Source of the DNA: a virus
Virus genome (UHGV): UHGV-0292054
DNA: 10,649 nucleotides
Direction: 5' to 3' (one strand)
Shown here: positions 1 through 10,649 of the stretch, in pieces
Layout of the letters: the number at the start of each line of letters is the position of its first letter
Numbering within the stretch: position 1 is the first letter of the stretch
Translations under genes and position numbers: made by a program
The notes under the pieces: model-generated
Databases searched by the model: none
Seen by the model: only the letters and a program-made list of their open reading frames with translations
What the model was told of the DNA's origin: nothing

Positions 1-855
1 TCAGCAGTTCGTCATCAGGGCGTCACCGCCACCACCGGTGGCCTTGCTGCGGCGCTGCTGGGTCAGACTTTCGGTGTGGTCGAGACTGTTTTTCAGGCGG
101 GTGAATGCCTGACTGGTTTCATCCGCCCTGTCAGTCACATCCTGCTTAAGTGCGGAAAAGGCGGTTTCCATCTCAGCGAGTCGCTGCTCAGTGGCGCTCA
201 GCTTTTCCTGCACATGTTCAGCAACAGCGGTCACCGCTTCATGCACGTCATTCAGACGGGCGTCATCGCTGGCCTGTTTGCGGCCAAAAATGGATTTCAC
301 CTTTTCGGTCAGGGCGGTGAACACGGTTTCAGGCAGGTCTTCAAATTCCAGCTCAACAGGCGTTGCCACTGAAATCAGGTTTTCAGGGCTTAATTTGAAG
401 CGGTTCAGGGGGTTGTGTTTTGCCGTGCGGCAGAATTCCAGGTATTCCGTGCCGAGGCTTGCCGGGTCATCGGTGACGGCCAGCCCCACCAGATAACATT
501 TGCCGGTGTTGGCAAAGTTCGGCTGAATTTCCATTGAGGTATAGACCTTCTGCGCGGCCTTGTTCATCGCGATAAGGTCATCGGTCGGGGTGATTTTCGC
601 AAACAGCGCCCATTTGCCTTTCAGCGCCGAATCATCGTCAATCTTTTCGGCCTTCAGTTCGGCCACATCGCCATAACGTTTAAAAATGCCGTCAGGCAGG
701 ATGCCGCGCAGATGTTCCAGGTTAATACGGCAACCATAGACTCGCGGGTCAAAGGTTTCGGCCATTTCCTGAATATCCTGCGCACTGATGACACGCCCGT
801 CACAGGTGTCACCCTCAACGCCGATACGAAAGAATTTTGAGACTTTTTTAGCCAT
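1..855 (-). CDS. O: Capsid scaffolding protein GpO (P2-like), full length, 284 aa
   Basis: ORF track 1..921 minus; the product from the internal ATG at 855 (MAKKVSKFFRIGVEGDTCDGR...) matches my recollection of P2 gpO in sequence and length. The TTG/GTG-extended start at 921 was rejected. Stop codon is at 1..3. Divergent from P as in P2. Confidence 0.88.
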   Translation of the reverse strand: MAKKVSKFFRIGVEGDTCDGRVISAQDIQEMAETFDPRVYGCRINLEHLRGILPDGIFKRYGDVAELKAEKIDDDSALKGKWALFAKITPTDDLIAMNKAAQKVYTSMEIQPNFANTGKCYLVGLAVTDDPASLGTEYLEFCRTAKHNPLNRFKLSPENLISVATPVELEFEDLPETVFTALTEKVKSIFGRKQASDDARLNDVHEAVTAVAEHVQEKLSATEQRLAEMETAFSALKQDVTDRADETSQAFTRLKNSLDHTESLTQQRRSKATGGGGDALMTNC

Positions 856-1028
856 TGTCAGGAGTCCTGAATAGTGAGTAGAGGAGTCACATGTCGGCAT
901 CAGTTTCCCGACGATGCGCATCCTCCGCCATCAGTCCCGGATGGCTTATCACTGACACAACAGCACCTTAGCGAATCGCGGGGCGCGACTCAGTAGCCTT
1001 GCCGTGTATTCATCACGGCGAGGTATTC
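856..1028. promoter_or_regulatory. Divergent intergenic region between O and P, expected to carry the Ogr-dependent late promoters
   Basis: 173-bp spacer between divergent late genes, same arrangement as the P2 O/P promoter region. I could not find clean TGT-N12-ACA activator dyads by eye, so the call is positional only. Confidence 0.35.
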
Positions 1029-2801
1029 ATGACCATCACCACAGACACCACTCTTTTACACGACCCGCGTCGTCAGGCGGCGCTGCTGTACTGGCAGGGG
1101 TTTTCCGTGCCGCAGATTGCCGCCATGTTGCAGATGAAACGCCCGACGGTGCAGAGCTGGAAACAGCGCGACGGCTGGGACAGCGTTGCCCCCATCAGCC
1201 GTGTCGAAATGAGCCTGGAAGCGCGGCTGACCCAGCTCATCATCAAACCGCAGAAAACCGGCGGTGACTTCAAGGAAATTGACCTGCTGGGACGCCAGAT
1301 TGAACGACTGGCACGGGTAAATCGCTACAGCCAGACCGGCAACGAGGCAGACCTTAATCCGAACGTCGCTAACCGCAACAAAGGCGGGCGTCGCAAACCG
1401 AAAAAGAATTTTTTCAGTGACGAAGCCATCGAAAAGCTGGAGCAGATTTTCTTTGAGCAGTCTTTCGACTATCAGTTGCACTGGTATCGCGCCGGGCTTG
1501 AGCACCGCATCCGCGATATCCTGAAATCCCGCCAGATTGGCGCGACGTTTTATTTTTCCCGCGAGGCACTGCTGCGCGCCCTGAAAACCGGTCATAACCA
1601 GATTTTTCTGTCGGCCAGTAAAACGCAGGCGTATGTGTTCCGCGAATACATCATCGCCTTTGCCCGTCTGGTGGACGTTGACCTTACCGGTGACCCGATT
1701 GTCCTGGGCAATAACGGCGCAAAACTGATTTTTCTCGGCACCAACTCCAACACCGCGCAGAGCCATAACGGCGACCTGTACGTCGATGAGATTTTCTGGA
1801 TCCCGAATTTTCAGGTACTGCGTAAGGTGGCATCAGGTATGGCCTCACAGAGTCACCTGCGCTCGACCTATTTCTCCACCCCGTCCACGCTGGCGCACGA
1901 CGCCTACCCGTTCTGGTCAGGTGAACTGTTCAACCGGGGACGTGCCAGCGCCGCCGAACGTGTGGAAATCGACGTCAGTCATAACGCCCTTGCCGGGGGG
2001 CTTCTCTGTGCGGACGGCCAGTGGCGGCAGATTGTCACCATTGAGGACGCCCTGAAAGGTGGCTGCACGCTGTTCGACATTGAGCAGCTCAAACGTGAAA
2101 ACAGCGCCGACGATTTTAAAAACCTGTTCATGTGTGAATTTGTTGACGACAAGGCGTCGGTGTTCCCGTTCGAGGAGCTGCAACGCTGCATGGTCGACAC
2201 GCTGGAAGAATGGGAAGACTATGCGCCGTTTGCCGCCAATCCGTTCGGCTCCCGCCCGGTATGGATTGGTTACGACCCGTCACACCGTGGCGACAGTGCC
2301 GGATGCGTGGTGCTGGCACCGCCGGTGGTGGCCGGTGGCAAATTCAGAATACTTGAGCGTCACCAGTGGAAAGGCATGGACTTTGCCACCCAGGCTGAAT
2401 CCATCCGCAAACTCACCGAAAAATACAACGTCGAATACATCGGAATTGATGCCACCGGCCTCGGTGTCGGCGTGTTCCAGCTCGTGCGCTCGTTCTATCC
2501 CGCCGCGCGTGATATCCGCTACACGCCGGAAATGAAAACCGCAATGGTGCTCAAGGCAAAAGACGTCATCCGCCGTGGCTGTCTGGAATACGACGTCAGC
2601 GCCACCGACATCACCAGCTCGTTTATGGCTATCCGCAAGACCATGACCAGCAGCGGACGCAGCGCCACCTATGAGGCCAACCGCAGCGAGGAAGCCAGCC
2701 ACGCCGACCTCGCCTGGGCGACCATGCACGCCCTGTTAAATGAGCCACTCACCGCCGGTATCAGCACCCCGCTGACATCCACCATTCTGGAGTTTTACTG
2801 A
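1029..2801 (+). CDS. P: Terminase large (ATPase) subunit GpP, 590 aa
   Basis: ORF track 999..2801 begins at a TTG; ATG at 1029 is preceded by GAGGT 5 nt upstream. Product MTITTDTTLLHDPRRQAALLYWQGFSVPQIAAM... matches P2 gpP in sequence and length. Stop TGA overlaps the Q start. Confidence 0.9.
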   Translation: MTITTDTTLLHDPRRQAALLYWQGFSVPQIAAMLQMKRPTVQSWKQRDGWDSVAPISRVEMSLEARLTQLIIKPQKTGGDFKEIDLLGRQIERLARVNRYSQTGNEADLNPNVANRNKGGRRKPKKNFFSDEAIEKLEQIFFEQSFDYQLHWYRAGLEHRIRDILKSRQIGATFYFSREALLRALKTGHNQIFLSASKTQAYVFREYIIAFARLVDVDLTGDPIVLGNNGAKLIFLGTNSNTAQSHNGDLYVDEIFWIPNFQVLRKVASGMASQSHLRSTYFSTPSTLAHDAYPFWSGELFNRGRASAAERVEIDVSHNALAGGLLCADGQWRQIVTIEDALKGGCTLFDIEQLKRENSADDFKNLFMCEFVDDKASVFPFEELQRCMVDTLEEWEDYAPFAANPFGSRPVWIGYDPSHRGDSAGCVVLAPPVVAGGKFRILERHQWKGMDFATQAESIRKLTEKYNVEYIGIDATGLGVGVFQLVRSFYPAARDIRYTPEMKTAMVLKAKDVIRRGCLEYDVSATDITSSFMAIRKTMTSSGRSATYEANRSEEASHADLAWATMHALLNEPLTAGISTPLTSTILEFY

Positions 2802-3835
2802 TGAGCAAGAAAAAAGGGAAAACACCGCAACCTGCGGCAAAAACAATGACCGCCAGCGCCCCGAAAATGGAAGCATTCACCTTTGGTGAGCCGGTGCCGG
2901 TACTCGACCGCCGTGACATTCTGGATTACGTCGAGTGCATCAGTAACGGCAGATGGTATGAGCCACCGATCAGCTTTACCGGTCTGGCAAAAAGCCTGCG
3001 TGCTGCCGTGCATCACAGCTCACCGATTTACGTCAAACGTAATATTCTGGCCTCGACATTTATCCCGCATCCGTGGCTTTCCCAGCAGGATTTCAGCCGC
3101 TTTGTGCTGGATTTTCTGGTGTTCGGTAATGCGTTTCTGGAAAAGCGTTACAGTACCACCGGTAAGGTCATCAGACTGGAAACCTCACCGGCAAAATATA
3201 CCCGCCGTGGCGTGGAGGAGGATGTTTACTGGTGGGTGCCGTCCTTCAACGAGCCGACACCTTTCACGCCCGGCTCCGTGTTTCATCTGCTGGAGCCGGA
3301 TATTAATCAGGAGCTGTACGGCCTGCCGGAATATCTCAGCGCCCTTAACTCTGCCTGGCTGAATGAGTCAGCCACGCTGTTCCGCCGCAAGTATTACGAA
3401 AACGGCGCACATGCCGGATACATCATGTACGTCACTGATGCCGTGCAGGATCGCAACGATATCGAAATGCTCCGCGAAAACATGGTGAAGTCGAAAGGCC
3501 GCAACAACTTTAAAAATCTGTTTCTCTATGCCCCGCAAGGGAAAGCCGACGGCATTAAAATTATCCCGCTCAGTGAAGTGGCAACGAAGGACGATTTTTT
3601 TAATATCAAAAAAGCCAGCGCCGCAGACCTGCTGGACGCGCACCGCATCCCTTTTCAGTTGATGGGCGGCAAGCCGGAGAACGTCGGGTCGCTGGGTGAT
3701 ATTGAGAAAGTGGCAAAGGTCTTTGTCCGCAATGAGCTTATCCCGTTACAGGACAGGATCCGCGAGATAAACGGCTGGCTCGGTCAGGAGGTCATCCGCT
3801 TTAAAAACTACTCACTGGACACTGACAACGGCTGA
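2801..3835 (+). CDS. Q: Portal (capsid-vertex) protein GpQ, 344 aa
   Basis: ATG at 2801 overlaps the P stop (TGATG), indicating translational coupling. Length and sequence match P2 gpQ. Transcribed toward cos as in P2. Confidence 0.9.
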   Translation: MSKKKGKTPQPAAKTMTASAPKMEAFTFGEPVPVLDRRDILDYVECISNGRWYEPPISFTGLAKSLRAAVHHSSPIYVKRNILASTFIPHPWLSQQDFSRFVLDFLVFGNAFLEKRYSTTGKVIRLETSPAKYTRRGVEEDVYWWVPSFNEPTPFTPGSVFHLLEPDINQELYGLPEYLSALNSAWLNESATLFRRKYYENGAHAGYIMYVTDAVQDRNDIEMLRENMVKSKGRNNFKNLFLYAPQGKADGIKIIPLSEVATKDDFFNIKKASAADLLDAHRIPFQLMGGKPENVGSLGDIEKVAKVFVRNELIPLQDRIREINGWLGQEVIRFKNYSLDTDNG

Positions 3836-3840
3836 ACATC

Positions 3841-3862
3841 GCCGCCTGCGGGCGGCTTTTTT
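3841..3862 (+). terminator. Rho-independent terminator downstream of Q
   Basis: GCCGCC-TGCG-GGCGGC hairpin followed by TTTTTT, 6 nt after the Q stop codon. Confidence 0.6.
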
Positions 3863-4004
3863 ACCCCCCGTCATCACGCCCTCACACGCTCACCACCGCA
3901 CAAAACAGCCCGCAGACACACCAACGCCCCGGCGCACAATCTAAACGCCATCACGACGCGCTCAGACGCTGAAAAAATAAAATCAGCACCACCGCCAGCG
4001 CGCA

Positions 4005-4023
4005 GTGCTTTCCCCGCCTCGCC
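4005..4023. other. P2-type cos site (19-nt cohesive end sequence)
   Basis: gtgctttccccgcctcgcc at 4005..4023 is the reverse complement of GGCGAGGCGGGGAAAGCAC, the P2 cohesive end as I recall it. Its position next to Q and its orientation fit the P2 map. Confidence 0.65.
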
Positions 4024-4169
4024 CGCCCGCTTCATGGGTCGGTTTTAATGCAGTTGCATGAACACCGTCAAACCTAGCTAGCATTGGCAGCAGAAAGCAA
4101 GTGAGCTAGACTAAAGCACATTCAAACTCATGCACCAAATGATGCACGGAAAAAACAGAGAAATCGCGG

Positions 4170-4199
4170 AAAAAGCAAAAAAATAGCACCCAAAGGTGC
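4170..4199 (-). terminator. Putative rho-independent terminator ending the cargo operon (minus strand)
   Basis: GCACC-CAAA-GGTGC hairpin at 4186..4199, followed on the minus strand by a T-rich run (plus-strand aaaagcaaaaaaata at 4170..4185). Lies just downstream of the stop at 4211. Confidence 0.45.
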
Positions 4200-4210
4200 C
4201 ACTTTGATGA

Positions 4211-4783
4211 TTAATTTTTATTGTCGCCAGAAGGTTTATTGTTGCTTTTGAACAAACCACTAACAACAAACCCAACCAATCCCACAATACTCACAGTTGT
4301 GGTTCCCATAAGCGCAATGATAATTGTTTCTGGTGGATCAAAATCTTTTTTCAATACATACATAAATATGACCCAGCCGACAAAACAACACCAAACAATC
4401 ATGAATTGATATGTTTTATCAGCCATAGTTCTACGGAGCTCATTGTCCGTAAGCAGGCCGTCGGTTTCCGCATTTTTTCTTTTGGTTTCTGCCTGTACGC
4501 TTTCAAGGTTAGTGCTTATAGTTTCAACACAGCGACTCAATTCAGCAATTTGAAAATTAAGACTGGATAAATCCAAACGCTGCATGGTCGCAGCATCCTC
4601 TTCTTCCTTTTGCATTTCATCAACAGCGTCCTCAACAGACTCAGGCTCATGAGATTCTTCATCCCAACAGCCCTCATCTCCCAAAGCCGCAGAGGCAGTT
4701 ATCAGATTCTGCTCAGCTTGCTGCAATCGTCTGAGAAGGTCTTTATCAAATTCAGCTGTCACTTTCTTATTATCGTCAGGCAT
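4211..4783 (-). CDS. Hypothetical membrane protein, 190 aa: acidic/coiled-coil-like N-terminal domain plus two C-terminal hydrophobic helices; candidate toxin/effector of the cargo module
   Basis: ATG at 4783..4781. Hydrophobic stretches QFMIVWCCFVGWVIFMYVL and TIIIALMGTTTVSIVGLVGFVVSGLF; acidic segment DEESHEPESVEDAVDEMQKEEED. AT-rich relative to the flanking phage genes. No homologue recalled. Confidence 0.6.
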   Translation of the reverse strand: MPDDNKKVTAEFDKDLLRRLQQAEQNLITASAALGDEGCWDEESHEPESVEDAVDEMQKEEEDAATMQRLDLSSLNFQIAELSRCVETISTNLESVQAETKRKNAETDGLLTDNELRRTMADKTYQFMIVWCCFVGWVIFMYVLKKDFDPPETIIIALMGTTTVSIVGLVGFVVSGLFKSNNKPSGDNKN

Positions 4784-4787
4784 AAAA

Positions 4788-4809
4788 AACCCCGTACATA
4801 GACGGGGTT
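4788..4809 (-). terminator. Intercistronic terminator-like hairpin (possible attenuator) between the two cargo genes
   Basis: Perfect 8-bp stem AACCCCGT / ACGGGGTT with a 6-nt loop, followed on the minus strand by a U-run that ends at the ATG of the downstream gene (4783). The only purine-rich candidate SD (GGGG) is inside the stem. Confidence 0.45.
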
Positions 4810-4823
4810 ATCTTAATTCGGAC

Positions 4824-5294
4824 TCATAGTCCGATGCAATTGCTATCGCCGTGTAGCAGCTTTTGATAGTAATCCTGAATAACGGAATCAGGAATGATAT
4901 CCATACGACTATCCATTGCTTGCTTCCAAGGAGTACCTTCACGATGTGTGAAAGCAGATAAATCCTCAGCGGTATATTTACCGTAAACGTTATAAACGTT
5001 CTGCAGCAACTGCTCAGTCATAGGGTCAAACTCCTGAGAAATTGCCGATGGAACTTGTATTGGTTGTGTTATGGGACTACGGCCATAAACTTTAAGATAG
5101 TTATACAGAACTGGAACCACTGGACCATAACGCCATGCACAAACTGGTGTCGTTAACAAAGGCGTCCCTTTGTAACCCAGATTTATACCATGTGCTATAT
5201 AGGTCAGCTTTTGTGCCTGCATCTGGGTGATTGGCATACCAGCCGCGCAAGCAAGTTCTATAAACTTATTCGCGATGTTCAATGGGCTGTACAT
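4824..5294 (-). CDS. Panacea/DUF4065-like protein, 156 aa (PanA/SocA-type candidate antitoxin or sensor)
   Basis: ATG at 5294 preceded by AAGGAGG 6 nt upstream; the track start at 5345 is a GTG and was rejected. The motif QKLTYIAHG...G.PLL...AWRYGPVVPVLY resembles the conserved core of PF13274 as I remember it. Sits directly upstream of the membrane-protein gene. Confidence 0.55.
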   Translation of the reverse strand: MYSPLNIANKFIELACAAGMPITQMQAQKLTYIAHGINLGYKGTPLLTTPVCAWRYGPVVPVLYNYLKVYGRSPITQPIQVPSAISQEFDPMTEQLLQNVYNVYGKYTAEDLSAFTHREGTPWKQAMDSRMDIIPDSVIQDYYQKLLHGDSNCIGL

Positions 5295-5511
5295 ACTCAA
5301 CCTCCTTTGCTGTCCTCTTATGTCACGAAAAGCAACCGAGAACACTCAATTTTTACCTATACCCGAGCCTTCAAGCCTGGAATTGTAAACGCTATATCTT
5401 AAGCATACTCAACATTGCGCGCGGAGTATAAATTTGATAGTGAGCATACACAATCAATAAACCATATATTTTTATAGAAATATACATTTATAGCATCTTT
5501 CCAGATTAAAG

Positions 5512-5531
5512 TACTGTATATAAAAACAGTA
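5512..5531. promoter_or_regulatory. LexA (SOS) box
   Basis: TACTGTATATAAAAACAGTA has CTGT-N8-ACAG with an AT-rich spacer, 18/20 matches to the consensus TACTGTATATATATACAGTA. Lies between the A stop (5572) and the cargo operon start. Confidence 0.65.
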
Positions 5532-5555
5532 TAATGATTTTTATCACACTTGCAA
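5528..5555 (-). promoter_or_regulatory. Putative sigma70 promoter for the cargo operon (minus strand), overlapped by the LexA box
   Basis: Minus-strand reading gives TTGCAA (5555..5550), a 16-nt spacer, then TATACT (5533..5528). The -10 overlaps the LexA box, the usual layout of SOS-repressed promoters. Confidence 0.4.
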
Positions 5556-5571
5556 CGCTGTTCATTTCAGT

Positions 5572-7754
5572 TTATATGAATCCCGGCCACTCATCAGCGA
5601 CCGGATACGTGAATTTTTTCCCGTCATAATTTACTGTTGCCCCACGCGCCAGCGCCTCAAGCTCCCATCGCTGCGGCCTGATACCGTTCTGAGCAAGGTC
5701 AACGCGGATACGGGTGATTTGCATTCTTTCCGACCGGGTCAGTCTGGCCGATGGTGCAATTTCATGTGGTTTTAACGGGCTTCCGTTTCTTTGCTGACGG
5801 TTTGGTCTTCTCAGGCCGTGTTTTAATGCGCTTCTGAGCGCCCTCACAACCTCCGGGTCATTCCATTCGATAACACCGTCATCAACCAGATTAAGCACTG
5901 CTGCGGCGTGCTCAGAAGGTGTGGGAGCCGGTAACGAAGTATCACCACCGTTGAGCTTTCCACAGTTATTGACAGGACTCCGAGGCGCGGCGATGCCGCT
6001 TTTTAAAGTCAAAGGCTCAACGACCGGAACTTTCGGCACAATGCGCCAGTCCGTCGTTCTGGTGATATGAATATGACGCGCGCCGAGATGCGGCGCGTAA
6101 ATGCCGACCACTCTCTCGACTTCTTCCTCGTACTCGTTAACTTCATCCGACGGGCTACGGGCGACTCTGACAGTCTGGCAATCGCGCGGAACATTTGCCC
6201 CACCCTGCGCACTGATATACAACGCAAAATCGCCACTGTCTGCGGCAGCGCGTGCAGCCTCGACGCGTTCGTCAAACTCATCAGCAATGCTGACGCCCAT
6301 GCAGTAACAGCCGCGGCAGTATCTTTCAGAGGTCTGCCGGTATCGTTATCGAGCTGACCATCCAGTGCATAGCCGTCGATGTTTTTTGAGATGTATTTCG
6401 CGATATACCCCGCAGCACCGCCCCGATTAAGGTGTTTTGCCTGAAAACGGTTTCGCGCTGCTCCTCTTTCGTCGCCATCCTCTTTGAGCGCATAGCGACG
6501 CATGATTTCGATAATCTGGTTACGCTGGCGCGAATTACAAAAAAGCATCATATGCCAGTGCGGCGTTCCGTCGTGGTGTGGCTCGACGACACGCAAACCG
6601 TAGACCTGTAAATCATTATCCTTGAATGCCGTGCGCATCAGGCTCCAGATGCGGCAGAGATAACGCTGCGCATCCTTTGGATTAAATGCCTCATCGTTCC
6701 AGCCGTGATTAAGCTGAACGGTTTTACTTTCGCCTTTTCTGACCTGACGAGTCGGGTGATACTTTGACGGCGCAGTCAGCGTGATAAACATCCCCACATC
6801 ACCCTCTGCGGCGGCGTAACGCTCAATACCGGCAATGGTGTTCATCAGCTCCATCCGGCGAATTTCAGGATTAGAAATACTGCCCATCACCTTACTGATA
6901 AGGTCGATGCGCTCGCCGGTTTCCCTGTTTTCAAGGTCACACGATTTAAGAAATTCCAGATTTGCCTGGCGGCGCGCACGCACATCACGAATGGCGTGTT
7001 TACTGGCATAAGGAGAACGGTCTTTATTGACCTCCCCGACAGCTATCAGTAACGCTTCATGCCAGCGCATACGCTGGCCTTTAAGCTGATGAGTCCACCA
7101 CTCATCGTTAAACAGACGGGCAATGGCAGAATATGCCTGCCTCGTGGTCATCTGCCCTTTACGGTATTTTTTCCAGTAGAGAGGGGAAATATTGAAAGCA
7201 CGTGCAGCGCCAGCAACATGACCATAGAGGTGAGCCTGCGCCTCATCCGTAAACAGCGATTCTTTTTCGCCATGCGCATCCACCCAGGCATCGCAGAGTT
7301 CCTCATACATCATGAAAAGCTGCGATGAGATACGGGCGGCAAACTTTTTCAGCTCCTTGTCATTCATCCCCGGCAGACGCGCATAATGGTCACGCTCTGC
7401 CAGAAACAGCAACGACGCGTCGGTGTTCATTTCATGGCGCTGATTCACACGCTCAATGCGCGGCCATAAACGACGCTGAAAAGTGGATGTGAGAAAATAA
7501 AACCCGTGCACCGGGCTTTTATTGCGCCGGATGTAGTCATAGCGTGAAGTAAACAGCGAGCGCAAAAAGTAAGGCAGGCGGTTAATCGTGGATAAAACAC
7601 CTTGCACCTGACGCATCTCGTCACGTGTAAGGGGTCTTTCGCGCCCGACAGCCTCGCGTGGCGCGTTCCATGCATAAGCACCGGTAAGCGCCTTACCGGT
7701 GCCTGCGGCAAATGCTGACGGAGGGACAAAACGCCCGGAGGCTTTAACGGCCAT
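5572..7754 (-). pseudogene. A: Replication initiation endonuclease gene A (P2 gpA family), interrupted by a frameshift or small deletion near 6295..6310
   Basis: Two overlapping minus-strand ORFs in different frames (6009..7796 and 5572..6300) both match P2 gpA: the N-terminal part MAVKASGRFVPPSAF...AGYIAKYISKNIDGYALDGQLDNDTGRPLKDTAAAVTAWAS and the C-terminal part GVSIADEFDERVEAARAAADSGDF...PGFI. The 93-aa tail of the long ORF is the out-of-frame reading of the C-terminal part. ATG at 7754 chosen over the TTG at 7796. Combined length is about 727 codons against about 761 recalled for P2 A. Confidence 0.7.
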
Positions 7755-8019
7755 ATGAGCCAAAAGCCTCTGAACAACGCTTGCTGAGTTGCTCAACCTG
7801 CACGTTTAAATCAGCAAAAGACTTTGCGCTTCCGGTCAGAATATCGTGATGCATCAGGCCTGAAACGAGCTGGCTTAATTTCGGGTAATAACCAACCACC
7901 GCCAGCCATTCCTGACCGGCGTTTTTACCGCTTTCAGCTCTCTTTTTCTCGTGGAGAATAAACTGAAAGCTGTCACTGGTAACGACATAACGTTCGCCAA
8001 TTTCAATACGAATACTCAT
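7744..8019 (-). CDS. Small early-operon protein, 91 aa (position of P2 orf83)
   Basis: ATG at 8019 overlaps the upstream stop (ATGA); ends 11 nt inside the A start. Typical coupled small ORF of the P2 early operon. Confidence 0.55.
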   Translation of the reverse strand: MSIRIEIGERYVVTSDSFQFILHEKKRAESGKNAGQEWLAVVGYYPKLSQLVSGLMHHDILTGSAKSFADLNVQVEQLSKRCSEAFGSYGR

Positions 8020-8240
8020 GCCGTTCTCCGGTAATGTTTGTTTTTTGCTTCAAAGACTGACTGACAGGAAACACAACGCGTGGCTGACGGGTAAGCCGCA
8101 CGACGGGCAGCAGGTATTGGCGCGTCACACTCTTCGCAAACCAGCGCAGAAGCACCGCAATGTTTTACCCTTGCCGCGTTAATCTGGCGCTCCAGTAATT
8201 CAGCCTGTTGTTCCTGAATAAAATCTACGTTGTCCGGCAT
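8016..8240 (-). CDS. TraR/DksA-family C4 zinc-finger protein, 74 aa (P2 orf82-like)
   Basis: Four cysteines in CGASALVCEEC...RCVSCQ, the pattern of phage TraR/DksA-like proteins. ATG at 8240 overlaps the upstream stop (TAATG). Confidence 0.6.
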   Translation of the reverse strand: MPDNVDFIQEQQAELLERQINAARVKHCGASALVCEECDAPIPAARRAAYPSATRCVSCQSVFEAKNKHYRRTA

Positions 8241-8542
8241 TACCAGTTCCTTTTGTCGTTCAGTTTTTTAAATTCATCAGCGCAATAGCTGGCGATTTCT
8301 GTCGTTAATTTCGTCAGTTCATCCACGGAGGAAATTTGCTTGTGAAATACAGCGCGTTTAACAAGTAAATTGACCACATCAGACAGGAGGTTTAATTCAC
8401 TCTGATAAATCGCGATAACAGATTCAGTTATTTCGCGTTTTTCTTTATCAAGACCAAGTTGAATAAGAGACAAATCGCCATTTTTCATAACGGCGATTTT
8501 TAAGGCATTGTTCAGTAAAACAACTGAACGAGAACAGGACAT
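8240..8542 (-). CDS. Hypothetical early-operon protein, 100 aa, AT-rich
   Basis: ATG at 8542 overlaps the upstream stop (TGATG). Visibly lower GC than neighbouring genes. No recognisable motif. Confidence 0.5.
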   Translation of the reverse strand: MSCSRSVVLLNNALKIAVMKNGDLSLIQLGLDKEKREITESVIAIYQSELNLLSDVVNLLVKRAVFHKQISSVDELTKLTTEIASYCADEFKKLNDKRNW

Positions 8543-8766
8543 CAAAGCACCTCCCCGCGAGACAATCCGATGTTGTGAAATTTTTCCGACTCCTGACTGA
8601 GCAGCTCGACTATCTCCACGCGGGATAACTCCGCCTTTGTGATGTGGCGAATCATGGCGTCAAGATGAGAAGAAAAGCGCGTCGCTGCATCGGCCTGTGC
8701 TTCGGTTCTGGCCTGTTGCAGCAGTAATGCGTATTTACCGCACTGATTTTCAGAAACTGTATGCAT
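8542..8766 (-). CDS. Hypothetical early-operon protein, 74 aa
   Basis: ATG at 8766 preceded by GGAGA; the track start at 8799 is probably a non-ATG extension. Product [21 protein letters not shown]... Confidence 0.5.
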
Positions 8767-8829
8767 GACTTTCTCCAGGCAAAAAGAAGCCCCGCACAAT
8801 TAAGTGCGTTAAAAACTCTGGTTAATTAC

Positions 8830-9336
8830 TTAATGCAGATATTGCTCTGGTTTTACCGACGTCAGAATTGTCGGTGCATACTCAAACAGGCTGAATAATT
8901 CACGTAATGCACGGAATAAAGCATCACGCCAGTAACATGACTCTTCATTAATTCGCCAGTATGGCTGGTTGAATTCTTTTTCAGTCAATCCGGCATGCAT
9001 AAATAAAGTGCGACGCTGACTGACTGTTAAAAAACTAATATATGCATACTCACTTGCGCCAACCTGACGGCGTTTTGAGAATGCCCCACGCAATTCATCA
9101 ATTGCACAAACCAGCCGTTCACGTTCGACGTCGTTCATTTCTTCAAAACGCATCGTTGCGTGACGCTGTTTTAACTGCGCATGAAAGCAAACCGTTAGCC
9201 GTTCGCGCTCCATCATCTGATTATAATAATCACATGTATCCTGCCAGCGAGGAACGGCAAGATGCTTACCAATTATCCGGCGCATAGCTGCTGGCTGTTT
9301 TTCAACGAGATTGAGCGTCATCACTGTCATTTCCAT
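8830..9336 (-). CDS. B: Replication protein B (P2 gpB-like), 168 aa
   Basis: ATG at 9336 preceded by GGAGG. Product MEMTVMTLNLVEKQPAAMRRIIGKHLAVPRWQDT... matches my recollection of P2 B in sequence, size (about 166 aa) and position. Confidence 0.75.
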   Translation of the reverse strand: MEMTVMTLNLVEKQPAAMRRIIGKHLAVPRWQDTCDYYNQMMERERLTVCFHAQLKQRHATMRFEEMNDVERERLVCAIDELRGAFSKRRQVGASEYAYISFLTVSQRRTLFMHAGLTEKEFNQPYWRINEESCYWRDALFRALRELFSLFEYAPTILTSVKPEQYLH

Positions 9337-9497
9337 ACCCTCCGGCTTTTCAGAAAGGTCAGAGCCTTTTTTAACGGACTCTGTTTTTTGGTGCGGATAA
9401 TGATTCCCTTACGCCCCTTACCGTGGGTGATGGTGAAGTCAATCGCCCTTGGGCTTTCGTTACGCAGTAACTGAGCAATACAACGCGGTTCACTCAT
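9327..9497 (-). CDS. Small hypothetical protein, 56 aa, between cox and B (position of P2 orf78)
   Basis: ATG at 9497 sits 2 nt after the cox stop (TGATTATG); stop overlaps the B start. The track's longer version from 9524 overlaps cox and is less likely. Confidence 0.4.
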   Translation of the reverse strand: MSEPRCIAQLLRNESPRAIDFTITHGKGRKGIIIRTKKQSPLKKALTFLKSRRVWK

Positions 9498-9499
9498 AA

Positions 9500-9772
9500 T
9501 CACAACCCCATCCACAAAAGCCATGCATCACGCTGTTCAACTGGTCGGTTATAAAACGCCTCTCGTACAGCGCGATTAAACTCTGGAATGAAAACCCACT
9601 TCTCACCGACACGAGCGTTCGGCTTACTTGGATCACGAAGCTCAATAACTGGCAATTTATTCTCTTTTACCATCTTGACTACAGCCGTTTCTGGCTTACC
9701 AAGTAACTCTGCAAACTTAACCGTATGTACCGCATCAATCGGGTACTGAATCACATAGTCATTGACTTCCAT
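9500..9772 (-). CDS. cox: Cox-like excisionase / transcriptional repressor, 90 aa
   Basis: ATG at 9772. The motifs KLPVIEL and GEKWVFIPEFN, the C-terminal DAWLLWMGL, the size and the first-gene position opposite C all fit P2 Cox. Confidence 0.7.
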   Translation of the reverse strand: MEVNDYVIQYPIDAVHTVKFAELLGKPETAVVKMVKENKLPVIELRDPSKPNARVGEKWVFIPEFNRAVREAFYNRPVEQRDAWLLWMGL

Positions 9773-9924
9773 TGATTAGCCCTTTTTGCTTTCGTGTTAC
9801 CCTTATTAGATCCAGTCCCTTCTAGGTCGCCCCTGTCCTTTCTAGGGACTGGCTAACACACTCAAAAGGTCACCAATACACAACCTTTTGACGGGAATAT
9901 AAGTCACCAATAGGTTACTGTCAA
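9773..9924. promoter_or_regulatory. Immunity switch region between cox and C (Pe/Pc promoters and operator repeats)
   Basis: Inverted repeat ccagtccct (9812..9820) / agggactgg (9844..9852). Direct repeats c(c)cttctagg / cctttctagg spaced about 20 bp apart. Direct repeat gtcaccaata at about 9870 and 9903. Candidate Pc is TTGACG (9888..9893), 17 nt, TAGGTT upstream of the C ATG. Confidence 0.5.
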
Positions 9925-10218
9925 ATGCAGACATTCGAAAAACTGAAAGCGATTAGGAAAGCAGAAGGCTTAACACAGGCGAAATTCAGCGAAATTAGCG
10001 GGATAGCTCTAGGAACAGTCAAAAATTACGAAAGTGGGCATAAAGACCCTGGTCTCAGCATCGTTATGCGAGTCACAAATACGCCTTTATTTAAAAAATA
10101 TACGCTCTGGTTAATGACTGGTGATACGTCACCACAAGCTGGTCAGATCGCGCCGGCTCTCGCACACATTGGGCAAAAACCAACAGAATCAGACCACTCC
10201 GAAAAACAGACTGGTTAA
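9925..10218 (+). CDS. C: Immunity repressor C (P2 C-like), 97 aa
   Basis: Divergent from cox. N-terminal HTH-like segment LTQAKFSEISGIALGTVKNYESG; C-terminal KYTLWLMTGD...GQIAPALAHIGQ resembles P2 C. Confidence 0.75.
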   Translation: MQTFEKLKAIRKAEGLTQAKFSEISGIALGTVKNYESGHKDPGLSIVMRVTNTPLFKKYTLWLMTGDTSPQAGQIAPALAHIGQKPTESDHSEKQTG

Positions 10219-10287
10219 CACTCTATAAACATTATATTTTCACCATTTGTTACCAAGATGGTGAATACAGCGTCAGAGGGCTTTCTT

Positions 10288-10533
10288 ATGTCAATTAAGA
10301 AGCTCGATGATGGACGCTATGAAGTGGACATTAGACCTCGCGGTCGCGACGGAAAACGCATCCGCAGGAAATTTGAAAGAAAAGCTGAGGCTGTAGCATT
10401 TGAGCGATACACAATCGCCTACGCCAGCCAGAAAGAATGGGCAGGTCAGCGAGCAGATCGCAGAACTTTGAGTGAGTTGCTGGACATCTGGTGGAAATAT
10501 CACGGGCAAAACCACGAGCATGGAACAAAATAG
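10288..10533 (+). pseudogene. int: Integrase N-terminal fragment (about 81 codons of an expected 337), truncated by IS2
   Basis: ATG at 10288; the track start at 10258 is an upstream ATG. MSIKKLDDGRYEVDIRPRGRDGKRIRRKFERKAEAVAFERY... matches the P2 Int N-terminus. The frame ends at a TAG formed by the first bases of the IS2 end. Confidence 0.8.
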
Positions 10534-10649
10534 ACTGGCCCCCTGAATCTCCAGACAACCAATATCACTTAAATAAGTGATAGTCTTAATACTAGTTTTT
10601 AGACTAGTCATTGGAGAACAGATGATTGATGTCTTAGGGCCGGAGAAAC
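10531..10649 (+). mobile_element. IS2 (IS3 family) left end, continuing beyond the window
   Basis: tagactggccccctgaatctccagacaaccaatatcactta matches the IS2 left inverted repeat as I recall it. About 90 nt later comes ATG ATT GAT GTC TTA GGG CCG GAG AAA, encoding MIDVLGPEK, the start of InsC/OrfA. Confidence 0.8.
10622..10649 (+). CDS. insC: IS2 transposase OrfA (InsC), 5' partial
   Basis: Starts MIDVLGPEK and runs off the window end. Confidence 0.75.

What the first reader, a model, noticed from the sequence alone, without database searches (positions are those of the whole stretch)
10288..10649. IS2 insertion truncates the integrase after about codon 81
The Int-like frame runs from 10288 and stops at a TAG supplied by the first bases of the IS2 left inverted repeat at 10531; InsC begins at 10622. 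A tyrosine integrase missing its catalytic domain cannot carry out excision, so the prophage is locked in the chromosome. IS2 carries an outward-facing promoter element in its ends, which could also alter local transcription.
Basis: partly seen in the sequence, partly recalled or inferred. Interest (0 to 1): 0.55.

Follow-up and report, generated by a model that had tools for sequence, protein, structure and literature searches.

The report
IS2 insertion disrupting a prophage integrase
A common E. coli jumping gene (IS2) sits inside the integrase gene of a P2/Wφ-type prophage and cuts the protein to 81 of 326 residues, an ordinary way for a prophage to lose the ability to leave the chromosome.

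Summary
Window 10288-10530 is identical to the first 81 codons of an intact 326-aa P2-family (Wφ-type) tyrosine integrase that lies next to cpxP in several ETEC genomes. The intact gene reads ...ACA AAA GAG TTT. The window reads ...ACA AAA TAG ACT GGC CCC.

From 10531 to the window end (119 bp) the sequence is 100% identical to thousands of annotated IS2 copies. It starts at the canonical IS2 left terminus TAGACTGG, and the orfA/insC ATG is at +91 (10622). The stop codon comes from the first three IS2 bases.

The 81-aa product keeps only the N-terminal region and 24 residues of the core-binding domain. It has no catalytic domain, so it cannot recombine DNA.

Three limits apply:
- The window ends inside IS2, so the right end, the 5-bp duplication and the 3' part of int are unseen. 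I could not find them in any collection.
- The IS2 end in the window carries the inward promoter P-IRL. The outward -35 element is in the unseen right end.
- The prophage is also damaged elsewhere: an 85-bp frameshifting deletion in replication gene A (about 6290).

This is ordinary prophage decay by a known element, and interest is low.

The parts
9925..10218 (+). Immunity repressor gene C (97 aa, helix-turn-helix), upstream of int on the same strand
   Evidence: Pfam HTH_3, E = 2e-8. The homologous CDS is annotated in ETEC relatives and as 'C: immunity repressor' in phages fiAA91-ss and Wphi.
10288..10530 (+). 5' fragment of the tyrosine integrase gene: codons 1-81 of 326
   Evidence: Identical to residues 1-81 of the intact WP_000023384.1. 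Only Int_N profile positions 1-24 of 100 remain and there is no Phage_integrase domain.
10526..10530 (.). CAAAA, the 5 bp next to the IS2 terminus. This is the predicted target site, expected to be repeated at the unseen right end if the insertion is simple.
   Evidence: Inferred from the 5-bp duplication (GGGAC) flanking an annotated IS2 copy. The second copy was not observed.
10531..10533 (+). TAG stop codon of the truncated int frame, supplied by IS2 bases 1-3
   Evidence: The intact allele has GAG here and the window has TAG followed by ACTGGCCCC.
10531..10649 (+). Left end of IS2: the first 119 of 1,331 bp, with the transposase reading the same way as int. It is cut by the end of the window.
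   Evidence: 119/119 identity to annotated IS2 copies, E = 8e-55. Boundaries were checked on L009 1601-2931.
10531..10572 (+). IS2 left inverted repeat (IRL, 42 bp)
   Evidence: Length and layout from PMC3299598. Sequence read.
10570..10576 (+). TAAATAA, the docking site for the OrfA repressor
   Evidence: The motif and its position (within IS2 residues 39-48) are as described in PMC3299598. Read.
10578..10586 (+). Start of the weak inward extended -10 promoter P-IRL (TGAT at IS2 residues 48-51)
   Evidence: PMC3299598 and the sequence. The assignment rests on the literature and was not tested here.
10622..10649 (+). First 9 codons of IS2 orfA (insC): MIDVLGPEK
   Evidence: The annotated IS2 transposase CDS starts at the same offset, +91.

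Best explanation
A copy of IS2 (IS3 family, copy-out/paste-in) has transposed into codon 82 of the integrase gene of a Wφ-type P2-family prophage. In its closest relatives this prophage sits next to cpxP.

IS2 lies with its left end (IRL) towards the int start, and its transposase reads in the same direction as C-int. Translation of int stops at the TAG formed by the first three IS2 bases. The 81-residue product keeps the N-terminal region (probably the arm-type DNA-binding domain) and one helix of the core-binding domain. It lacks the rest of that domain and the whole catalytic domain with the active-site tyrosine.

Shown: the breakpoint, the identity of both partners, and the loss of the domains.

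Inferred: the prophage cannot make a working integrase and so cannot excise or re-integrate on its own. With the separate 85-bp frameshift in replication gene A, it is a defective ('grounded') prophage that still carries its repressor and its cargo genes. Also inferred but not seen: the rest of IS2, a second CAAAA, and the int 3' part (codons 82-326) followed by the attachment site and cpxP.
For: - The breakpoint is exact to the base against the intact allele.
- Window 1-10530 is 100.0% identical, apart from one 85-bp gap, to prophages in seven ETEC genomes with an intact 326-aa int next to cpxP.
- The IS2 segment is 119/119 identical to annotated IS2, and the join is at the true IS2 terminus TAGACTGG. 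That position is the signature of transposition, not of recombination or misassembly within a repeat.
- Domain map: Int_N 57-155 and Phage_integrase 164-307. The P2 integrase structure 5c6k aligns to residues 48-324, E = 2.7e-82.
- Precedents: KpLE2 P4 integrase interrupted by IS3A (PMC3032704); int disrupted in Sp3, Sp11 and Sp12 of O157 Sakai (PMC2669165); the 'grounding' concept (PMC6379469).
Against: - The window stops 119 bp into IS2, so the right end, the target duplication and the 3' part of int are not seen.
- Neither the observed left junction nor the predicted right junction occurs in 5,426 complete E. coli genomes, the species-representative genomes, or the metagenome and viral contigs. 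The allele has no independent second sighting.
- No excision assay was possible. Int supplied in trans could still excise the element.
Confidence: 0.85

Rival explanations
1. IS2-bounded rearrangement rather than a simple insertion. After the original insertion, or through recombination between two of the many IS2 copies in such strains, the DNA beyond this IS2 is no longer the int 3' part. It has been deleted or inverted, possibly taking the attachment site with it.
For: - The right end is unseen, and the predicted right junction was not found anywhere.
- Related ETEC strains carry many IS2 copies, for example 18 places in the chromosome of strain 504239. These are substrates for IS-IS recombination.
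- The prophage shows other decay, the 85-bp deletion in A.
Against: - The left junction was not found either, so the source genome is simply absent from the collections and the missing right junction carries no weight.
- Simple insertions with a target duplication are the usual outcome of IS2 transposition (my knowledge; illustrated by the copy).
Confidence: 0.12
2. Assembly or windowing artefact. The int fragment and the IS2 end were joined wrongly, and the real genome has an intact int.
For: The window ends inside a multicopy repeat, as short-read contigs often do, and no second sighting of the junction exists.
Against: - The join falls exactly at the first nucleotide of IS2, not inside shared sequence.
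- There is no repeat shared between int and IS2 at the join that could mislead an assembler.
- A contig that stops about 119 bp into a repeat is what a true junction looks like in a de Bruijn-graph assembly (inference).
Confidence: 0.03
3. The truncated product is functional. An 81-aa arm-binding protein made from the lysogenic C-int transcript occupies the arm sites of attL/attR, or of an incoming related phage's attP, and so stabilises the prophage or interferes with relatives.
For: - The fragment retains residues 1-81.
- A single-sequence AlphaFold model gives three strands plus a helix for residues 2-51 (mean pLDDT 71).
- Its best Foldseek matches include the AtERF1 GCC-box domain and the Tn916 integrase N-terminal DNA-binding domain. 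From my knowledge these share the fold of the lambda Int arm-binding domain.
- The reading frame, ribosome-binding site and upstream C gene are intact.
Against: - The Foldseek matches are not significant (E = 0.34 and 1.2), and the model was built without an alignment.
- The allele is seen nowhere else, so there is no sign of selection.
- The exact-sequence hits to the 81-aa and 91-aa products were all contig-end fragments of the intact allele.
Confidence: 0.05

Closest known systems
IS2 (IS3 family; genes insC/insD = orfA/orfB) of Escherichia coli
   Same: The 119 bp in the window are identical to annotated IS2. They show the terminus TAGACTGG, the 42-bp IRL, the TAAATAA OrfA site, TGAT of P-IRL, and the orfA ATG at +91 with MIDVLGPEK.
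   Different: Nothing differs in the part that is visible. Only 9% of the element lies in the window, so completeness, the right end and the target duplication are unknown.
Integrase of coliphage Wφ / P2 (Peduovirus tyrosine integrases; P2 Int structures 5c6k, 5dor)
   Same: The C-int segment 10100-10533 is 99.1% identical to Wφ, 99.5% to fiAA91-ss and 99.8% to Yersinia phage GMG73 / Escherichia phage 899. The intact allele matches P2 Int at E = 2.7e-82. The gene order cox | C int and the neighbour cpxP match the Wφ-type site cpxP-fieF.
   Different: Here only codons 1-81 precede the IS. The core-binding and catalytic domains are missing from the product.
Other prophage integrases disrupted in E. 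coli (KpLE2 P4-type int interrupted by IS3A; Sp3, Sp11 and Sp12 int of O157 Sakai), i.e. 'grounded' prophages
   Same: Same kind of event and the same expected outcome, a prophage unable to excise by itself (PMC3032704; PMC2669165; PMC6379469).
   Different: A different IS and a different prophage family. This particular allele was not found in any collection searched.

Membership tests
IS2 (IS3 family insertion sequence) | Left terminus TAGACTGG... and the 42-bp IRL | tested here: met
   10531-10572 is identical to the left end of an annotated IS2 that is bounded by a 5-bp duplication. Layout as in PMC3299598.
IS2 (IS3 family insertion sequence) | OrfA operator TAAATAA and the P-IRL extended -10 just inside IRL | tested here: met
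   TAAATAA at 10570-10576 and TGAT at 10578-10581, matching residues 39-51 described in PMC3299598. This tests sequence presence only, not activity.
IS2 (IS3 family insertion sequence) | orfA (insC) start at the proper offset | tested here: met
   ATG at 10622 (+91), MIDVLGPEK. Same offset as the annotated transposase CDS.
IS2 (IS3 family insertion sequence) | Full 1,331-bp element with orfA/orfB, the frameshift site and IRR ending ...AAATCCA | not testable with these tools
   The window ends at IS2 base 119. The source genome was not found in any collection.
IS2 (IS3 family insertion sequence) | 5-bp direct target duplication | not testable with these tools
   Only the left copy (CAAAA, 10526-10530) is visible. 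The predicted right junction was searched for and not found.
P2-family (Wφ-type) tyrosine integrase | Sequence identity of the N-terminal part with an intact family member | tested here: met
   81/81 residues identical to WP_000023384.1. The DNA is 99.1-99.8% identical to Wφ, fiAA91-ss and GMG73.
P2-family (Wφ-type) tyrosine integrase | Core-binding domain (Pfam Int_N) present | tested here: not met
   Only profile positions 1-24 of 100 are present, at 24.5 bits against a cutoff of 27. This is a gene fragment, not a functional member.
P2-family (Wφ-type) tyrosine integrase | Catalytic domain (Pfam Phage_integrase) with the active-site tyrosine | tested here: not met
   Absent from the 81-aa product. 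It occupies residues 164-307 of the intact allele and aligns with the P2 and HP1 integrase catalytic-domain structures.
P2-like prophage (Peduovirus) | Gene content and order: scaffold O | terminase P, portal Q | cargo | A ... cox | C int | tested here: met
   Annotation of the 100%-identical ETEC locus and ORFs at the same coordinates in the window.

The most novel reading that the evidence does not exclude
The insertion creates a new arrangement in which the lysogenic C-int transcript has two consequences. It makes a free 81-residue arm-site-binding protein that interferes with integration or excision of related Wφ-type phages. It also reads in the sense direction into IS2 orfA/orfAB, coupling IS2 transposase expression to the prophage repressor promoter. 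Neither effect is excluded by the sequence, and neither has any support beyond the geometry and a weak fold resemblance.
Probability: 0.05. Interest if true: 0.4.

Novelty: already known. Interest (0 to 1): 0.12.

Why it matters
The finding matters mainly for annotation. int should be called a pseudogene interrupted by IS2, and the prophage should be scored as defective because it has two lesions: int::IS2 and the 85-bp deletion in gene A. For strain biology, the repressor C and the cargo genes are probably now fixed in the chromosome. Those cargo genes are a Panacea-domain protein with a weakly DUF2975-like neighbour, at the P2 variable locus. This is one more example of prophage 'grounding' by an IS and opens no new question.

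Tried and rejected
**1. Looking for the same allele elsewhere, to reach the other IS2 end.**
- The left junction was searched in complete E. coli genomes, species-representative genomes, metagenome contigs and viral contigs.
- The predicted right junction (IRR + CAAAA + int codon 82 onward) was searched in complete E. coli genomes, species-representative genomes, metagenome contigs and viral contigs.
- All eight searches were empty.

**2. Exact-sequence look-up of the 81-aa and 91-aa products.**
- Six short contigs were returned.
- The five I read end in ...CAAAA...CAAAAG or ...CAAAAGA, which is the intact allele cut by a contig end. I did not read the end of the sixth, but its gene also runs to within one base of the contig end.
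- The tool can only return fragments of exactly this length, so this is a selection effect. I rejected it as evidence for the IS2 allele or for a breakpoint hotspot.

**3. Exact look-up of the two frameshifted gene A products to identify the source contig.** Neither is on record.

**4. Searching for the gene A deletion junction.**
- In complete genomes, every full-coverage hit in the rows shown spans 145 bp in two pieces, so those records do not carry the deletion. Only a sample of the 159 full-coverage records was listed.
- In viral contigs there was no hit.

**5. Structure of the 81-aa fragment.** The model has moderate confidence, and the fold matches are suggestive (AP2/ERF-type and Tn916 Int N-domain) but not significant. 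I use them only as a lead.

**6. Promoter and terminator scan of 9700-10649.** It found one promoter-like site, no more than expected by chance (mean 1.6 in shuffles). It lies on the minus strand at 9924-9896 and fits the early promoter for cox. It found nothing at the IS2 end.

Full report
**What is in the sequence**

The frame that starts at the ATG at 10288 translates to 81 residues, [81 protein letters not shown], and stops at TAG 10531-10533.

A megablast of 10100-10649 against 5,426 complete E. coli genomes gave best hits covering only query 1-434, that is window 10100-10533. These hits fall on genes annotated helix-turn-helix protein and phage integrase.

In ETEC strain 602354 the homologous CDS starts at the same ATG and encodes an intact 326-aa integrase, WP_000023384.1. 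It is followed by cpxP, cpxR and cpxA. Its first 81 residues are identical to the window's product.

The DNA diverges exactly after window 10530. The intact allele reads GGAACAAAA GAG TTT AAT C, and the window reads GGAACAAAA TAG ACT GGC C. The apparent match up to 10533 is one mismatch (G/T) followed by a chance AG.

**The inserted sequence**

Window 10531-10649 is 119/119 identical (E = 8e-55) to copies annotated 'IS3-like element IS2 family transposase'. Matches covering most of the query occur in 4,708 of 5,426 genomes, with a median of 3 places per genome.

I checked the element's boundaries on an annotated copy in strain 504239, L009 1601-2931:
- It begins TAGACTGGCCCC and ends GGGGCAAATCCA.
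- It is flanked by a 5-bp duplication, GGGAC.
- Its transposase CDS begins 91 bp in.

Applied to the window, IS2 starts at 10531 and orfA/insC starts at 10622, where the window reads MIDVLGPEK.

The published anatomy of the IS2 left end fits base for base (PMC3299598):
- 42-bp IRL: 10531-10572.
- OrfA docking site TAAATAA: 10570-10576.
- TGAT of the weak extended -10 promoter P-IRL: 10578-10581.

**What the truncation removes**

Pfam places the core-binding domain (Int_N) at residues 57-155 and the catalytic Phage_integrase domain at 164-307 of the intact protein. The 81-aa product matches only the first 24 of 100 Int_N profile positions, below the family cutoff.

The intact protein aligns with the solved P2 integrase (5c6k) over residues 48-324 at E = 2.7e-82, and with the P2 and HP1 catalytic domains.

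From established knowledge of tyrosine recombinases, the catalytic residues and the nucleophilic tyrosine lie in that C-terminal domain. A product ending at residue 81 cannot cleave or rejoin DNA.

What remains is the N-terminal region. A single-sequence AlphaFold model gives three strands and a helix (residues 2-51) and then one more helix, with mean pLDDT 71. Its best Foldseek matches include the AtERF1 GCC-box domain and the Tn916 integrase N-terminal DNA-binding domain, but at E = 0.34 and 1.2. That is a lead for an arm-type DNA-binding fold, not a demonstration.

**The prophage around it**

Window 1-10530 is 100.0% identical, apart from one gap, to a prophage in seven complete genomes, all or mostly ETEC (strains 120899, 602354, 103605, ETEC-2265, TW10722, 204446 and record LR883006).

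The annotation of that locus gives the P2 layout:
- capsid scaffold O
- terminase ATPase P and portal Q
- two cargo genes
- replication endonuclease A and small early genes
- cox
- then C and int on the other strand, next to cpxP

The C-int segment is 99.1% identical to coliphage Wφ, 99.5% to fiAA91-ss, and 99.8% to Yersinia phage GMG73 and Escherichia phage 899. The Wφ prophage of E. coli W is recorded at cpxP-fieF (PMC3032704). This is a Wφ-type Peduovirus prophage.

**A second lesion**

The single gap is an 85-bp deletion in the window relative to ETEC 120899. It lies inside gene A at about 6290/6291, between two copies of the 7-bp direct repeat TGACGCC.

It shifts the frame. The window's A product is native for about 488 residues, then has about 93 out-of-frame residues, against 755 residues in the intact protein. 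The YIAKY motif lies upstream of the deletion, but the C-terminal third is lost.

No listed full-coverage hit in complete genomes carries this deletion. Only a sample of those hits was listed.

The prophage is therefore damaged in replication as well as recombination. That fits ongoing decay better than a single regulatory event.

**How it most likely works**

Shown: IS2 sits at int codon 82 with its transposase in the same orientation as int. The stop comes from IS2, and the catalytic domain is not encoded in the product.

Inferred: no functional Int is made, so the element cannot excise or re-integrate on its own. Excision in P2-type phages also needs Cox and IHF (my knowledge). Repressor C, upstream and intact, should still confer immunity.

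Int supplied in trans by a related phage could still act if the attachment sites are intact. Prophage-prophage complementation of defective prophages is documented in O157 Sakai (PMC2669165).

**The promoter remark**

For IS3-family elements including IS2, the outward -35 hexamer that can form fusion promoters lies in IRR (PMC9330008). IRR is the end not contained in the window. If the insertion is simple, it would face the int 3' remnant and the attachment site.

The visible end carries P-IRL, which points into the element. A consensus scan found nothing at the IS2 end. It found one promoter-like site, no more than chance predicts, on the minus strand at 9924-9896, which fits the early promoter for cox.

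**What could not be settled**

The window ends 119 bp into IS2. Neither the observed left junction nor the predicted right junction (IRR + CAAAA + GAGTTTAATC) was found in any collection:
- complete E. coli genomes
- species-representative genomes
- metagenome contigs
- viral contigs

The frameshifted A products are not on record either. The source genome is evidently absent from these collections.

I therefore cannot show the target duplication or the int remnant, and an IS2-bounded deletion or inversion remains possible (about 0.12).

A misjoin is unlikely (about 0.03). The join is at the exact IS2 terminus, and no sequence is shared between the partners there.

Exact-sequence look-ups of the 81-aa and 91-aa products returned only contig-end fragments of the intact allele. 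That is a selection effect of the look-up and not evidence of anything.

**Comparison with what is known, and verdict**

Both partners are known, and so is the kind of event:
- KpLE2 P4-type integrase interrupted by IS3A (PMC3032704).
- int disrupted in three prophages of O157 Sakai (PMC2669165).
- The general 'grounded prophage' picture (PMC6379469).

The particular allele is unrecorded in the collections searched, but nothing about it is unusual. Novelty: already known. Interest: low (0.12).

Noticed in passing
window about 6284-6297 (deletion point 6290/6291), inside gene A on the minus strand (5572-7754): An 85-bp deletion relative to the otherwise 100%-identical ETEC prophage, lying between two copies of the 7-bp direct repeat TGACGCC. 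It frameshifts the replication endonuclease A: about 488 native residues plus about 93 out-of-frame residues, against 755 aa. It is a second inactivating lesion in the same prophage.
   Followed up: partly
window 4211-4783 (-) and 4824-5294 (-): These are cargo genes at the P2 variable locus between portal Q and gene A. One is a 156-aa SocA/Panacea-domain protein (antitoxin-type domain, E = 1.4e-17). The other is a 190-aa protein with a weak, sub-threshold DUF2975 match (E = 1.6e-4, 22.1 bits against a cutoff of 27). They may be a toxin-antitoxin or anti-phage pair that the immobilised prophage would retain. Function was not examined.
   Followed up: no
window 9896-9924 (-): A near-consensus sigma-70 promoter-like site (TTGACA, 17 nt, TATATT; 11 of 12) lies on the minus strand, directly abutting the start of C (9925) and pointing towards cox. 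This fits the face-to-face early/repressor promoter switch of P2-type phages. One such site in this region is no more than chance predicts.
   Followed up: no
L002-L007 (contig ends): Six short public contigs carry a gene call ending at int codon 81 that touches or nearly touches the contig end. The five whose ends I read carry the intact allele (...CAAAAG/GA). I read this as a selection effect of exact-length protein look-up, not as a biological breakpoint.
   Followed up: yes
window 10649 (end of window): The window stops 28 bases into insC, 119 bp into a multicopy IS. Short-read contigs typically break at such points, so the source may be a draft assembly in which the other IS2 end lies on a different contig.
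   Followed up: no
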